Part shown: piece by piece, positions 46,844-48,956 of the stretch
Numbering within the stretch: the first letter of the stretch is position 1
Layout of the letters: each line of letters begins with the position of its first letter
Position numbers and translations under genes: made by a program
Notes under the pieces: generated by a model
Seen by the model: only the letters and a program-made list of their open reading frames with translations
Told to the model about the DNA's origin: nothing
The model's database searches: none
Assembly: GCA_028228555.1 (NCBI GenBank)
Contig: JAOJBP010000005.1
Coordinates: 20,197 to 84,196, forward strand
Direction of reading: 5' to 3'
Origin: Candidatus Thioglobus sp.
GTDB taxonomy: Bacteria; Pseudomonadota; Gammaproteobacteria; PS1; Pseudothioglobaceae
DNA: 64,000 bases

Positions 46844-47158
46844 ATGAGTGATATGACATTATTAGAAAAAGATGAAGATATTGAAAAGGCAACTAAAGCT
46901 TTAAAAGCGATGGCTCACCCATTGCGACTAAAGATTTTATGTGCCCTTAAAAATGACGAGCTACCGGTATTAGAAATTGTTCAGCAGGTAGGATCTTCAC
47001 AATCAAATATCTCACAACATATTGATATCCTAAGAACTAAAGGTATTGTTGAGTCAAGGCGCGATGGTAATAAGATTTTATGTAAAGTAAAAGATGCAAA
47101 AATTCTTAAATTAGTGGCTAATATGCAAGCAGTATTTTGTTCATCTGAAGATAATTAA
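46844..47158 (+). CDS. ArsR/SmtB-family repressor, BigR/SqrR-like
   Basis: LKAMAHPLRLKILC, SQSNISQH helix-turn-helix, C-terminal VFC. Confidence 0.85.
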   Translation: MSDMTLLEKDEDIEKATKALKAMAHPLRLKILCALKNDELPVLEIVQQVGSSQSNISQHIDILRTKGIVESRRDGNKILCKVKDAKILKLVANMQAVFCSSEDN

Positions 47159-47183: not shown

Positions 47184-47214
47184 AAAAAAAAACCACCGTA
47201 AGGTGGTTTTTTTT
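47184..47214. terminator. Bidirectional terminator between the ArsR gene and the small-ORF cluster
   Basis: A9-CCACC-GTAA-GGTGG-T8. Confidence 0.9.
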
Positions 47215-47298
47215 AAACTTCTATTTCAAGGCAAATAAATAATTACACTTTAAGGCAACAATCTAGCCTGTGAAATTTTTATAACCCTAAACTATTTG

Positions 47299-47397
47299 CT
47301 ATTTTTTTACTTCTTGAACGGTAATTATTACAGCTATGATAGTAAGTGTAAAGCAAAATAAACCAAAGAAAAATACTACTGAATCTGTACCATTCAT
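47299..47397 (-). CDS. Small membrane protein B2 (32 aa)
   Basis: MNGTDSVVFFFGLFCFTLTIIAVIITVQEVKK*; SD AGGAG inside the upstream gene; paralogue of 47594-47707. Confidence 0.8.
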   Translation of the reverse strand: MNGTDSVVFFFGLFCFTLTIIAVIITVQEVKK

Positions 47398-47399
47398 AG

Positions 47400-47576
47400 T
47401 TAGCCTCTCCTGGTTATTATTTTAAAATAAATAGCAAAAGTTAAAATTGAAGGAATCCAAGTTGCAGTAAACAAGGCTTCTTGTTTTGTATCAGCACCTT
47501 GGAACCAAAGAAAAGCGGTTGTCATAAAAGCAACAGCTACAGCTATCAAGATAAGTACATCTGAGGTTTTAATCAT
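47400..47576 (-). CDS. Small two-TM membrane protein A2 (58 aa)
   Basis: MIKTSDVLILIAVAVAFMTTAFLWFQGADTKQEALFTATWIPSILTFAIYFKIITRRG*; SD AAGGAG. Confidence 0.88.
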   Translation of the reverse strand: MIKTSDVLILIAVAVAFMTTAFLWFQGADTKQEALFTATWIPSILTFAIYFKIITRRG

Positions 47577-47593
47577 AATTACACTCCTTATAG

Positions 47594-47707
47594 CTATTTT
47601 TTCTCTTCTGTCTCGATTTTTTTAAACTCTTGAGCAGTCAAAACAGCAGCAACTATTGTCAGTGAAAAGCAAAAGAAGCCAGCATAAAATATCATTGAGT
47701 TATCCAT
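47594..47707 (-). CDS. Small membrane protein B1 (37 aa)
   Basis: MDNSMIFYAGFFCFSLTIVAAVLTAQEFKKIETEEKK*; starts 2 nt after the A1 stop; SD AGGAAGG. Confidence 0.8.
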   Translation of the reverse strand: MDNSMIFYAGFFCFSLTIVAAVLTAQEFKKIETEEKK

Positions 47708-47709
47708 AA

Positions 47710-47886
47710 TTAATCCTTCCTTGCTATTATTTTAAAATAAATAGCAAAAGTTAAAATTGATGGAATCCAAGTTGCAGTAAACAAAGCTTCTTGCTTTGTA
47801 TCAGCACCTTGGAACCAAAGAAAAGCGGTTGTCATAAAAGCAACTGCTACGGCTATTAAAATAAGTACATCTGACGTTTTAATCAT
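47710..47886 (-). CDS. Small two-TM membrane protein A1 (58 aa)
   Basis: Identical to A2 for 54 aa, ends ARKD*; SD AAGGA. Confidence 0.88.
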   Translation of the reverse strand: MIKTSDVLILIAVAVAFMTTAFLWFQGADTKQEALFTATWIPSILTFAIYFKIIARKD

Positions 47887-47906
47887 AATTACATCCTTTT
47901 TAAAAG

Positions 47907-48110
47907 TTATTCTTCATTCCAAAAAGCCCAAGAACCTATTAGTAAGAAAATTACCGCTACTGAAGCATGCGCTCTTACACTTGATTCATTAGGCAACTCT
48001 ATTAAAAGCGGGAGAACATTAGCCATTCCTAGCAAAAGCCAAATTACTGATAATAATGCTAATAATAGTGCAGCTTTCCCGATTTTTTTTTTCATTCGAC
48101 TTTTCTTCAT
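47907..48110 (-). CDS. Small two-TM membrane protein (67 aa), first gene of the cluster
   Basis: Basic N terminus and two hydrophobic helices; 20 nt upstream of A1. Confidence 0.75.
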   Translation of the reverse strand: MKKSRMKKKIGKAALLLALLSVIWLLLGMANVLPLLIELPNESSVRAHASVAVIFLLIGSWAFWNEE

Positions 48111-48383
48111 ACTTAAATATTTAATTATTCAACAAACAATAAAAAATTAATAATTAAATTTCTATTTTTGAATATACCTGTTTTTTTAATCCTTGTTATA
48201 CAATTTATTTATTTTTGTACAATTTTATTTTAAAAGCAGTTTTAAACAATTAAAGTAACTGCTTAGTCATTACTAATAATATAAGGCCTGTCGAATGTAT
48301 ACTGTCAATAAAAGTGATTGTGAAAATATGTCTAAAGTCAGGCGCTTTAAAATAATTTTAGTTGATGCGGGGTAAGGCTAGTT

Positions 48384-48716
48384 ATGATGATTAATAATTT
48401 TACAATGAGCTTAACAGTGGCGAGTCTTTTCATCTCAACCTCTGTGCTTTCTAATAGCTGGGTGCTTGATAAGAGTAATTTTGAATATACTCAACCCACT
48501 TTGAATAAATGCATTGAGATCATGAAACAAGGTGTTTTAGTGGATTCCGAACCAATTAATAGGAATCAGCCGCTAGTTACCTACATTTATGACAACAACA
48601 TGTACAGTGTTCGTTGGAATAAAATTGATGAAATGCTGGTATGTTATTTCAATGGAAAACTGGTTAACTCTAAAAGTAATGAAGCCCAGAATAGAGATCA
48701 AATACTCCCAAGGTAG
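48384..48716 (+). CDS. Hypothetical secreted protein (110 aa)
   Basis: Signal-like N terminus, two Cys; no family recognised. Confidence 0.6.
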   Translation: MMINNFTMSLTVASLFISTSVLSNSWVLDKSNFEYTQPTLNKCIEIMKQGVLVDSEPINRNQPLVTYIYDNNMYSVRWNKIDEMLVCYFNGKLVNSKSNEAQNRDQILPR

Positions 48717-48879
48717 TTGAATATTGAATACACCTTTTATAGAGATTTTTTAGTACATATTTCGTGCATTAATAGCTATTTTGTGCATATAATTGTAGAG
48801 TAGTAATAACTCAAAACGAATTAATGAAAGCTTTAGAATGCCTTGATACAAAAGACTTTTCCAAGGCGAACCCCTTATT

Positions 48880-48956
48880 GTGCTCGTAGCTCAGCTGGAT
48901 AGAGTGTTGGCCTCCGAAGCCAAATGTCGGGTGTTCGAATCACCTCGAGCACACCA
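48880..48956 (+). tRNA. tRNA-Arg (anticodon CCG)
   Basis: Anticodon arm TTGGC-CTCCGAA-GCCAA; GTTCGAATC; encoded CCA. Confidence 0.97.

What the first reader, a model, noticed from the sequence alone, without database searches (positions are those of the whole stretch)
47299..48110. Hidden five-gene operon of tiny membrane proteins with a tandem-duplicated A+B module
Minus-strand order: 67 aa, A1 (58), B1 (37), A2 (58), B2 (32), terminator. Four of the five are absent from the ORF track. A1 and A2 differ at 8 nucleotides over the first 54 codons, all synonymous, which is direct evidence of purifying selection. Their last four codons differ and carry the SD for the B gene starting 2 nt after the stop, implying coupled expression. 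B1 and B2 are much more divergent but keep G.FCF.LTI.A...T.QE.KK with an intramembrane Cys. A conserved two-TM unit plus a variable single-TM partner suggests an undescribed small-protein membrane system (accessory subunits, channel or receptor with specificity unit, or defence). I recognise no family.
Basis: partly seen in the sequence, partly recalled or inferred. Interest (0 to 1): 0.7.

Follow-up and report, generated by a model that had tools for sequence, protein, structure and literature searches.

The report
Unnamed tiny membrane-protein operon, duplicated
Five real, strongly selected genes for tiny membrane proteins form one operon that this marine SUP05-type bacterium acquired from elsewhere; its two-gene core belongs to a large unnamed family found in abundant aquatic bacteria and in marine phages, often next to photolyase and redox-stress genes, and its function is still unknown.

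Summary
On the minus strand, 48110-47299 encodes C (67 aa), A1 (58), B1 (37), A2 (58) and B2 (32), with a promoter-like site, Shine-Dalgarno sites, 2-nt A/B junctions and a shared terminator.

A1 and A2 differ at 8 sites in codons 1-54, all synonymous.

- C-A-B in the same order occurs in all 65 genome loci that are intact across it, out of 68 fetched (Thioglobaceae, Methylophilaceae including OM43 and Methylopumilus, Methylophagaceae).
- The A+B pair alone defines a superfamily of at least 501 clusters at 50% identity. It also occurs in Bacteroidota-like contigs and in uncultured T4-like marine phages.
- No model in Pfam, NCBIfam, PADLOC, PHROGs or the PDB matches it.

In this genome the operon is a roughly 1.1-kb insertion between arsR and tRNA-Arg. 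It was not found in 17 of 18 other Thioglobus species. Its sequences nest among marine OM43 sequences, which suggests horizontal gain. The A-B duplication is specific to this lineage and appears in at least 10 independent assemblies.

Best reading: a heteromeric inner-membrane complex, with A as a conserved hairpin and B as a variable adaptor helix. A role in photo-oxidative or redox stress is inferred from neighbouring genes only.

The parts
48171..48199 (-). Promoter-like site: ATAACA, 17 nt, TATATT. It lies about 60-90 nt upstream of the C start codon.
   Evidence: Consensus scan. Relatives in marine Methylophilaceae have a clearer TTGACA-17-CATACT at the same relative place. No experimental support.
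47907..48110 (-). C: a 67-aa two-helix membrane protein with a basic N-terminus, an ordered hydrophobic loop (NVLPLLIELPNES), an R.HAS motif and a W.FWNE(E/D) C-terminus.
   Evidence: ORF. Present upstream of A in 67 of 68 genome loci. Near-invariant W24, L25, G28, P34, R46, H48, A49, S50, W61, W64. AF2 pLDDT 92.4, helices 5-29 and 44-62.
47710..47886 (-). A1: a 58-aa helical hairpin and the conserved core of the family (LWF.G...E.LFTATWIPSIL.F.IYFK). SD AAGGATG lies 7 nt upstream.
   Evidence: ORF. 96 close homologues. 501 representative clusters by profile search. AF2 pLDDT 93.9, helices 4-25, 28-38 and 40-57. Differs by 1 nucleotide in 177 from the orthologue in the sister species.
47594..47707 (-). 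B1: a 37-aa single-helix protein (by charge distribution, N-terminus outside and K/E-rich tail inside) with the motif G.FCF. Its ATG lies 2 nt after the A1 stop and its SD lies inside the last A1 codons.
   Evidence: A B gene is found directly after A in 65 of 68 genome loci. G10, C13 and F14 are kept in at least 95% of 61 sequences.
47400..47576 (-). A2: a paralogue of A1, identical in residues 1-54. Its tail is TRRG where A1 has ARKD.
   Evidence: The A2-type protein (P0001, 95% identical to A1) is indexed in 119 blocks of the public collection.
47299..47397 (-). B2: a 32-aa divergent paralogue of B1, about 45-50% identical by eye, with a short tail. It is coupled to A2 in the same way as B1 to A1.
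   Evidence: The orthologue in the sister species keeps the helix core and varies in the tail.
47184..47214 (.). Bidirectional intrinsic terminator (A-run, CCACC-GUAA-GGUGG, U-run), shared with the convergent arsR-family gene.
   Evidence: Fold -19.4 kcal/mol, z = -5.5. The hairpin is also present in relatives that lack the operon.
47392..47902 (-). Tandem duplication: two 201-nt copies (47392-47592 and 47702-47902) at 90% identity with a 310-nt period. Each unit is SD + A + the start of B.
47213..48350 (.). Segment absent from the closest genome that lacks the operon (G002). In 8 of the 10 compared Thioglobus loci that lack it (L093-L100), the end of arsR lies about 35 nt from tRNA-Arg.
   Evidence: blastn of the window against 10 syntenic loci; sequences read; tRNA-Arg(CCG) at 48880-48956.

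Best explanation
The region is one operon: promoter-like site, C, A1, B1, A2, B2, terminator. It encodes a hetero-oligomeric inner-membrane complex of a large protein family that has not been described.

Shown:
- All five ORFs are conserved under purifying selection.
- A is a two-helix hairpin and C is a two-helix hairpin with an ordered loop.
- B is a single helix whose start codon is coupled to the A stop in bacteria of several lineages and in phages.
- A+B is the ancient module. C is an addition in Proteobacteria.
- In this Thioglobus lineage the operon sits in a roughly 1.1-kb insertion beside tRNA-Arg, and A-B was duplicated before two sister species split.

Inferred:
- A, B and C assemble in fixed ratios. 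A is the constant membrane platform. B is the variable adaptor, and its cytoplasmic tail (variable peptide, a DYDG.GN.GR.P motif, or a whole Usp domain in relatives) carries the output.
- The second A2-B2 pair gives a second isoform with a different tail.
- The operon came by horizontal transfer from OM43-type Methylophilaceae.

Most speculative step: the complex serves adaptation to light-driven or oxidative/thiol stress at the membrane. This rests on neighbouring genes only: photolyase-family genes, a LitR/CarH-type regulator, SDR, DoxX, Msr, rhodanese, and peroxiredoxin plus glutaredoxin in phages.
For: Operon anatomy.

Selection: 8 synonymous and 0 non-synonymous differences between A1 and A2 in codons 1-54. 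I count about 16 synonymous and 0 non-synonymous changes across four copies in two species.

Family:
- C-A-B in the same order in 65 of 68 genome loci; the other three are cut at a contig end.
- 501 representative clusters for A.
- B follows A at -7 to +5 nt in most of 80 metagenome loci and in many of 79 viral loci.
- B is recovered across the whole family by iterative search, C only in Proteobacteria.

Structure: AF2 hairpins, pLDDT 93.9 (A) and 92.4 (C).

Insertion: empty sites in 10 congeners. A was found in 1 of 18 other Thioglobus species.

Transfer: the Thioglobaceae sequences nest within marine Methylophilaceae.

Not an artefact: at least 10 independent assemblies.

Adaptor idea: B fused to a Usp domain; conserved tail motif in Bacteroidota-like and phage B proteins.

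Stress link:
- LitR/CarH-type gene directly upstream.
- C-A-B-DPRP(-photolyase) and DPRP-SDR-A-B arrangements.
- A photolyase-family gene within 5 kb in 7 of 39 non-viral A clusters. My rough estimate of the chance expectation is well under 1.
- Glutaredoxin-peroxiredoxin-A-B in 10-12 phage loci.
- An earlier scan note of the same pair next to DoxX_2 genes.
Against: - There is no expression, translation or interaction evidence.
- No neighbour is conserved across all contexts. The largest syntenic group covers 15 of 68 loci, and most loci show no stress gene nearby.
- In this window the neighbours are uninformative, because the operon is an insertion.
- In Methylophilaceae, photolyases, msrA and dehydrogenases are typical cargo of an additive flexible genomic island rich in hypothetical genes (PMC10872708). 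Co-location there may reflect island structure rather than shared function.
- Other contexts point elsewhere: cytochrome c4 directly upstream in Pseudothioglobus, Fur directly upstream in 10 loci.
- The gene tree rests on 120 columns with a midpoint root and an unresolved inner polytomy.
Confidence: 0.55

Rival explanations
1. C, A and B are detachable accessory subunits or assembly factors of a larger known membrane machine encoded elsewhere, such as a terminal oxidase, a cytochrome c pathway or a transporter. Small oxidase and pump subunits work this way.
For: - Very strong conservation of A (60-100% identity across orders) is typical of subunits packed against a conserved partner.
- In Pseudothioglobus the trio starts 18 nt after a dihaem cytochrome c4 gene on the same strand (the same upstream sequence in L029 and L046).
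- Phages often carry small host-complex subunits.
Against: - No match to Pfam or NCBIfam models of known small subunits.
- No oxidase or transporter gene is a recurrent neighbour.
- The patchy distribution (1 of 18 other congeners) fits poorly with a subunit of a core machine.
Confidence: 0.17
2. The module is a phage-related membrane device, such as superinfection exclusion, abortive defence, or a holin/antiholin-like or toxin-immunity pair. Here it was picked up as mobile cargo, and the variable B acts as the specificity element.
For: - The A+B family is common in uncultured T4-like marine phage contigs: 211 stretches, 79 of 80 loci confirmed by profile, beside T4 RNase H, PhoH and DnaB-type genes.
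- Here it is an insertion next to a tRNA gene with patchy distribution.
- B evolves fast while A does not.
- One relative lies beside an integrase/transposase-type gene.
Against: - No PADLOC or PHROGs family, including holins and exclusion proteins, matches.
- The close C-A-B family was not found in viral contigs, and no member was found in 50,697 GenBank phage records by tblastn.
- The tree largely follows Methylophilaceae lineages, from freshwater to marine, which suggests long vertical inheritance in non-prophage contexts.
- No phage or integrase genes are evident among the gene calls around the operon in this lineage.
- The extreme conservation of A is unusual for defence genes.
Confidence: 0.15
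3. A is a remote relative of the MerT/MerF type of small metal- or thiol-handling membrane protein, and the module moves a metal ion or a thiol-reactive compound.
For: - A recurrent weak match of A-family members from different branches to the C-terminal two helices of NCBIfam merT_RC607: E = 0.0045-0.09, covering the whole length of A.
- Neighbours such as Fur, ferritin-like proteins, rhodanese, DCC1 and an ArsR-type regulator in some loci.
Against: - Scores of 13-17 bits against a curated cut-off of 130.
- A has no Cys pair. Window A1 and A2 have no Cys at all.
- The Cys in B is not conserved outside Proteobacteria.
- The ArsR gene beside the operon is present in congeners regardless of the operon.
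- No mer genes are evident beside the operon in the window or in the syntenic loci.
Confidence: 0.06
4. The ORFs are not genes. They are chance frames or an assembly artefact of a repeat.
For: The ORFs are very short and AT-rich. Gene callers miss B in many assemblies. One assembly has a gap of Ns inside A1.
Against: - Only synonymous change in A.
- Conserved order, spacing and motifs in hundreds of loci.
- The same arrangement in at least 10 independent assemblies.
- Confident AF2 models.
Confidence: 0.01

Closest known systems
Unannotated 59+36-residue membrane-protein pair next to DoxX_2 genes in Bacteroidota
   Same: It has the same A+B architecture and shares sequence words with a Bacteroidota-type A (P0221) of the family defined here. 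I saw A-B followed by two DoxX_2-type genes in locus L188. That note also concluded these are conserved chromosomal genes and not island cargo.
   Different: That version has no C gene and no Cys in B, and it is not duplicated. Here the module is an insertion. Neither note gives a function.
MerT/MerF small mercury-transport membrane proteins (NCBIfam NF033560 merT_RC607)
   Same: Similar size and a two-helix hairpin. This is the only recurrent, though sub-threshold, profile match.
   Different: No Cys pair and no mer operon. Scores are about a tenth of the curated cut-off.
Small accessory subunits of membrane machines (CydX, CcoQ/FixQ, KdpF type)
   Same: Tiny, highly conserved and co-translated with partners. 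In one lineage the trio is co-directional with cytochrome c genes.
   Different: No sequence match to any such model. The module usually stands alone, with no large partner gene in the operon.
High-light-inducible proteins (HLIPs) of cyanobacteria and cyanophages
   Same: This is a functional analogy only. Both are tiny membrane proteins shared between aquatic bacteria and their T4-like phages and linked to light stress.
   Different: No Pfam match to the chlorophyll a/b-binding family. The hosts here are non-photosynthetic. A pigment role is untested.
Phage small membrane proteins (class II holins, T4 Imm-type exclusion proteins)
   Same: Two-helix proteins of 55-85 aa encoded in T4-like phage genomes.
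   Different: No PHROGs match at a useful E-value. Long-term chromosomal conservation in Methylophilaceae. No linked endolysin in the bacterial loci.

Membership tests
MerT/MerF mercury transporters | Score above the curated family cut-off (NF033560, 130 bits) | tested here: not met
   13-17 bits, E = 0.0045-0.09.
MerT/MerF mercury transporters | Cysteine pair in the first transmembrane helix for Hg(II) hand-over (from established knowledge of MerT/MerF) | tested here: not met
   Window A1 and A2 have no Cys. Homologues have at most one in helix 1.
MerT/MerF mercury transporters | mer operon context (merR, merP, merA) | tested here: not met
   The neighbours in the window and in the syntenic loci are arsR, mlaC, a 110-aa ORF, tRNA-Arg and lgt.
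Small oxidase or pump subunits (CydX, CcoQ/FixQ, CcoS, KdpF) | Match to the Pfam or NCBIfam model of the subunit | tested here: not met
   No such family at E <= 1 for C, A1, B1, A2 or B2.
Small oxidase or pump subunits (CydX, CcoQ/FixQ, CcoS, KdpF) | Encoded in the operon of the large catalytic subunits | tested here: not met
   No oxidase or pump gene is among the recurrent neighbours. Only cytochrome c4 is adjacent, in two Pseudothioglobus loci.
Anti-phage defence systems (PADLOC) | Match to a model of a known or candidate defence protein | tested here: not met
   0 families for all six proteins tested.
Phage holins and exclusion proteins (PHROGs) | Match to a PHROG of that function | tested here: not met
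   Only weak hits: E = 0.014 to a PHROG annotated 'membrane protein' (moron/AMG category) and E >= 0.1 to families of unknown function.
Type I toxin-antitoxin (small hydrophobic toxin with antisense RNA) | Known antitoxin RNA family overlapping or adjacent | tested here: not met
   The only Rfam matches are sub-threshold hits on the terminator hairpin, E >= 0.3 and far below the gathering scores.
Type I toxin-antitoxin (small hydrophobic toxin with antisense RNA) | Toxicity on expression | not testable with these tools
   Needs an induction experiment in a laboratory strain.
HLIP / chlorophyll a/b-binding family | Match to Pfam PF00504 with its pigment-binding helix motif | tested here: not met
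   No such hit for any family member scanned.
The A+B(+C) family defined here | A-type hairpin with LWF.G ... W(V/I)PSI(L/I) followed by a start-coupled single-helix gene | tested here: met
   Met twice in the window. The profile matches A1 and A2 at E = 6e-36.
The A+B(+C) family defined here | C-type hairpin (WL.LG ... P ... R.HAS ... W.FW) directly upstream; proteobacterial subfamily only | tested here: met
   Window C aligns with 30 further C proteins. W24, L25, G28, P34, R46, H48, A49, S50 and W64 are kept.

The most novel reading that the evidence does not exclude
A+B (with C in Proteobacteria) is a previously unrecognised membrane system for light-driven or oxidative stress. It is shared by some of the most abundant freshwater and marine bacterioplankton (OM43, Methylopumilus, SUP05/Pseudothioglobus, flavobacteria) and carried as an auxiliary gene pair by their T4-like phages. 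This would make it a heterotroph counterpart of the HLIP story in cyanobacteria and cyanophages. A would be the constant membrane platform, and the B tails would be exchangeable outputs.
Probability: 0.25. Interest if true: 0.8.

Novelty: categorically new. Interest (0 to 1): 0.62.

Why it matters
These genes are missed or left as "hypothetical" in annotation. Yet the family spans at least 501 sequence clusters at 50% identity. It sits in genome-streamlined plankton, where unneeded genes are thought not to persist, and phages have recruited it.

Defining its role would add a component to the membrane biology of dominant aquatic bacteria. It would also give a new candidate auxiliary gene in marine phages.

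The window supplies a natural experiment: a recently acquired operon, with empty-site relatives for comparison. It also carries a duplicated module in which the constant part (A) and the variable part (B) can be told apart by their evolutionary rates.

If the function proves ordinary, such as a subunit of a known complex, the result would still correct the annotation of thousands of genomes.

Tried and rejected
- **Protein family libraries.** Pfam, NCBIfam, PADLOC and PHROGs scans of all five proteins and of distant relatives gave nothing above threshold.
- **Solved structures.** The PDB sequence search with a profile and the Foldseek search of the A model gave nothing (E > 0.4 and E > 3).
- **RNA elements.** The Rfam scan found no riboswitch or leader upstream of the operon, only tRNA-Arg and noise on the terminator.
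- **A conserved large partner gene.** Clustering the neighbours of 68 + 80 + 80 loci found none common to all.
- **Cultured phages.** tblastn of three family members against 50,697 GenBank phage records gave no match. The low-complexity filter may hide weak matches.
- **ArsR/BigR-like regulator as the operon's regulator.** Rejected: 17 of 18 congeners have it whether or not they carry the operon.
- **The 110-aa ORF at 48384-48716 as part of the system.** Rejected: a relative has it without the operon.
- **Folding a natural A-B read-through fusion (L073) as a stand-in for a complex.** Not done. The short linker would force B into the opposite membrane orientation.
- **Broad alignment A3 for a metagenome scan.** A narrower alignment was used instead.
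Full report
**1. What is in the window**

The minus strand of 48110-47299 holds five co-directional ORFs:
- C: 47907-48110, 67 aa
- A1: 47710-47886, 58 aa
- B1: 47594-47707, 37 aa
- A2: 47400-47576, 58 aa
- B2: 47299-47397, 32 aa

Signals around them:
- A1, B1, A2 and B2 are each preceded by a good Shine-Dalgarno site: AAGGATG, AGGAAGGA, AAGGAG and AGGAGAGG.
- The SD of each B lies inside the last four codons of the preceding A. The B start codon follows the A stop after 2 nt.
- A promoter-like site (ATAACA-17-TATATT, 48199-48171) lies upstream of C.
- A hairpin flanked by an A-run and a U-run at about 47184-47214 folds at -19.4 kcal/mol, z = -5.5. It serves both this operon and the convergent arsR-family gene (46844-47158).

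The A-B duplication is a 201-nt direct repeat at 90% identity with a 310-nt period.

A1 and A2 differ at 8 nucleotides in codons 1-54, all synonymous. Codons 55, 57 and 58 differ.

**2. These are genes and not an artefact**

A sister species, Ca. Thioglobus sp. AH-541-B16 (G013 = L003/L015), has the same C-A-B-A-B arrangement in the same synteny. The two genomes are about 92% identical over 3.5 kb here.

Over the four A copies, every change in codons 1-54 is synonymous. I count about 16 events by parsimony. Three of them are shared by both A2 copies, so the duplication predates the split of the two species. With roughly three quarters of random changes expected to be non-synonymous, this is strong purifying selection.

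The A2-type protein (P0001) is indexed in 119 blocks of the public collection. Ten independent assemblies (ENA and JGI metagenomes, NCBI single-cell and MAG assemblies) show thyA-lgt-(110-aa ORF)-C-A-B-A-B-arsR-mlaC. One of them has a gap of Ns inside A1, the usual trace of a tandem repeat in short-read assembly.

**3. The conserved unit is a trio in Proteobacteria and a pair everywhere else**

A close-relative search found 96 proteins of 61-95% identity to A, all unnamed. One further hit is a 45-aa fragment.

A scan of one genome per species found 68 loci, in:
- Ca. Thioglobus and Pseudothioglobus (SUP05 clade)
- marine OM43 and other Methylophilaceae
- freshwater Ca. Methylopumilus and Methylotenera
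- Methylophagaceae

C, A and B occur in that order in 65 of the 68, with about 20 nt between C and A and 2-5 nt between A and B. The other three are cut at a contig end. Only the sister species shares the duplication.

Conservation is striking:
- In A: K3, S5, L23-W24-F25, E33, L35-F36-T37, T39-W40-I41-P42-S43-I44-L45, F47 and I49-Y50.
- In C: W24-L25, G28, P34, R46, H48-A49-S50 and W61/W64.
- In B: M1, F7, G10, C13 and F14.

A six-frame profile search of 400 evenly drawn genomes of the class found only four further carriers, from three families. Three of them carry a much more divergent C'-A'-B' trio. The fourth has a DUF2177 membrane-protein gene in the place of C.

A profile search of 1.84 billion representative proteins gave 501 clusters at E <= 0.001. 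The consensus is MFK.SD..IL.A...SF..S..LWF.G...EG.F.G.WVPSIL.FGIYFK.

In 80 metagenome loci of the divergent branch, A is followed in most by a single-helix ORF starting 7 nt before to 5 nt after the A stop. Many of these loci are Bacteroidota-like, with type IX secretion tails nearby.

Iterative searches recover B across the whole family but C only in Proteobacteria.

**4. Shape of the proteins**

- AlphaFold2 with an 88-row alignment gives A as a confident helical hairpin (pLDDT 93.9). The helices are 4-25 and 28-57, with a break at residue 39 ahead of the invariant W40 and P42.
- C is a hairpin (helices 5-29 and 44-62) with an ordered 14-residue hydrophobic loop (pLDDT 92.4).
- By the positive-inside rule (inference), both ends of A and of C face the cytoplasm. 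B has its short acidic N-terminus outside and its K/E-rich tail inside.
- The helix core of A carries conserved hydroxyl residues (T19, T20, T37, T39, S43). This fits tight helix packing or a polar path, and I cannot tell which.

**5. No known family**

- Pfam and NCBIfam give nothing for any of the five proteins or for distant relatives. PADLOC gives nothing, and PHROGs gives only E >= 0.014 to uncharacterised membrane families.
- PDB sequences give nothing, and Foldseek against the PDB gives E > 3.
- The only recurrent signal is a weak match of A-type proteins from different branches to the last two helices of NCBIfam merT_RC607. It scores 13-17 bits against a cut-off of 130. A lacks the Cys pair that defines MerT/MerF, so I do not file it there.
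- No riboswitch or leader is present.

**6. How the operon came to be here**

- The arsR-family gene is present in 17 of 18 other Thioglobus species. A was found in only one of them.
- Ten syntenic loci from those species lack the operon. In eight of them (L093-L100) the end of arsR is about 35 nt from tRNA-Arg(CCG) (window 48880-48956).
- The closest operon-free genomes lack window 47239-48765 (G014) or only 47213-48350 (G002). G002 keeps the 110-aa secreted-protein ORF.
- The operon is therefore a roughly 1.1-kb indel, slightly more AT-rich than its flanks.
- In a tree of C+A (120 columns), freshwater Methylophilaceae are deep and diverse. Marine OM43 branch within them. All Thioglobaceae sequences, including the window, lie inside a shallow marine clade mixed with OM43 (SH-aLRT 89-94, midpoint root).
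- I read this as transfer from OM43-type Methylophilaceae into Thioglobaceae, and into this Thioglobus lineage in particular. The caution is that the alignment is short and the inner nodes are unresolved.

**7. Phages**

- The close C-A-B family was not found in IMG/VR.
- The divergent A pattern matched 211 viral stretches. Of 80 loci kept, 79 match the family profile at E = 1e-13 to 1e-22, and many have a coupled B.
- Their neighbours are phage genes on one strand: T4 RNase H, PhoH, a DnaB-type helicase and a metallophosphatase. One group has weak nucleotide similarity to cyanomyovirus S-RIM2 around phoH and a thymidylate synthase gene.
- In 10-12 loci, A is directly preceded by glutaredoxin and a Redoxin-type peroxiredoxin.
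- No member was found in 50,697 GenBank phage records by tblastn, so the carriers are uncultured.

**8. Clues to function**

No neighbour is universal. Some themes recur in unrelated lineages:
- A LitR/CarH-type gene (HTH + B12-binding domains) lies directly upstream on the same strand (L111-113).
- C-A-B is followed directly by a photolyase-related DPRP gene (L070, L071, L074). In L075-L079 a DPRP follows about 400 nt downstream, and in L076 a second photolyase-family gene follows it.
- DPRP-SDR-A-B lies on one strand in a high-GC contig (L155).
- A photolyase and an SDR converge on A in L107.
- CFA synthase and DUF1295 flank the trio in G126.
- MsrB and DUF2177 lie upstream in G178.
- Rhodanese, DCC1-type thiol oxidoreductase and DoxX-type genes occur in many Bacteroidota-like loci.
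- B is fused to a cytoplasmic universal-stress-protein domain in L194.

When A sequences are grouped at 80% identity, 7 of 39 non-viral groups have a photolyase-family gene within 5 kb. For a gene family present two or three times per genome, I estimate that well under one group would be expected by chance.

Against this:
- Most loci show none of these genes.
- Other contexts differ: cytochrome c4 directly upstream in Pseudothioglobus, Fur directly upstream in 10 loci.
- In Methylophilaceae, photolyases, msrA and dehydrogenases are typical cargo of an additive flexible island full of hypothetical genes (PMC10872708). Co-location there may be structural rather than functional.

**9. Most likely mechanism**

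Shown: the operon structure, selection, hairpin folds, coupling of B to A, the deep conservation of A against the rapid change of B (above all in its tail), and the insertion and duplication history.

Inferred:
- C, A and B are made in fixed ratios and assemble into a small inner-membrane complex.
- A is the constant platform.
- B is an adaptor whose cytoplasmic tail is the variable output. In relatives the tail is short and charged as here, or carries a DYDG.GN.GR.P motif, or is a whole Usp domain.
- A2-B2 provides a second isoform.

Speculative: the complex acts in membrane adaptation to light-driven or oxidative/thiol stress.

I put about 0.55 on this package as a whole. That is near 0.9 for [quoted passage not shown] and about 0.3-0.35 for the stress role.

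The rivals are an accessory subunit of a known machine (0.17), a phage-type exclusion, defence or lysis device (0.15), a MerT-like metal or thiol carrier (0.06) and non-genes (0.01).

**10. Limits**

I therefore could not search the window's own genome for photolyases or rhodopsin, nor run a co-occurrence test. No multimer prediction is available with these tools.

Noticed in passing
L196-L275 (IMG/VR contigs), A at about 6001 in most: The A+B pair is widespread in uncultured T4-like marine phage contigs. In 10-12 loci it sits directly after glutaredoxin and a peroxiredoxin. It looks like an unrecognised auxiliary gene pair.
   Followed up: partly
L194:183-815: A B-type helix is fused to a cytoplasmic universal stress protein (Usp) domain, and its start overlaps the A stop. 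A second A cluster (L171) also has a Usp gene within 5 kb.
   Followed up: partly
L118, L131, L140, L148, L173, L177, L182, L189 and the phage loci L208, L213, L214, L223, L228, L244: Many Bacteroidota-like and phage B proteins carry a conserved cytoplasmic tail motif, DYDG.GN(W/F/Y)GR(I/F)P, followed by a Lys-rich end. It may be a docking peptide. Window B1 and B2 lack it.
   Followed up: no
window 47710-47886 versus 47400-47576, compared with L015: The rates are asymmetric. The A1 orthologues of the two species differ at 1 of 177 nt, while the A2 orthologues differ at 17 of 177 (13 synonymous in codons 1-54). C differs at 11 of 204. I have no explanation. Possibilities are recombination or conversion, or different codon constraint.
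   Followed up: partly
window 48384-48716 (+): A 110-aa ORF with a signal-peptide-like N-terminus and no family match lies divergent from the operon. It is an indel of its own: G002 has it without the operon, and G014 and other congeners lack it.
   Followed up: partly
L121-L191 (23 loci), directly downstream of B: An unannotated polytopic membrane protein of about 293 aa with no Pfam match follows A-B in 23 Bacteroidota-like loci, mostly on the same strand. It is a candidate partner in that branch.
   Followed up: partly
L004:1696-2939 (Pseudothioglobus, G020): Here the trio starts 18 nt after a dihaem cytochrome c4 gene, which itself follows a monohaem cytochrome c gene on the same strand. 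Co-transcription with respiratory cytochromes is possible.
   Followed up: no
window 46844-47158 (+): An ArsR/SmtB-family regulator with a sub-threshold match to the sulfite-sensing BigR model (72 bits against a cut-off of 155). It is conserved in 17 of 18 congeners and shares its terminator with the inserted operon.
   Followed up: partly
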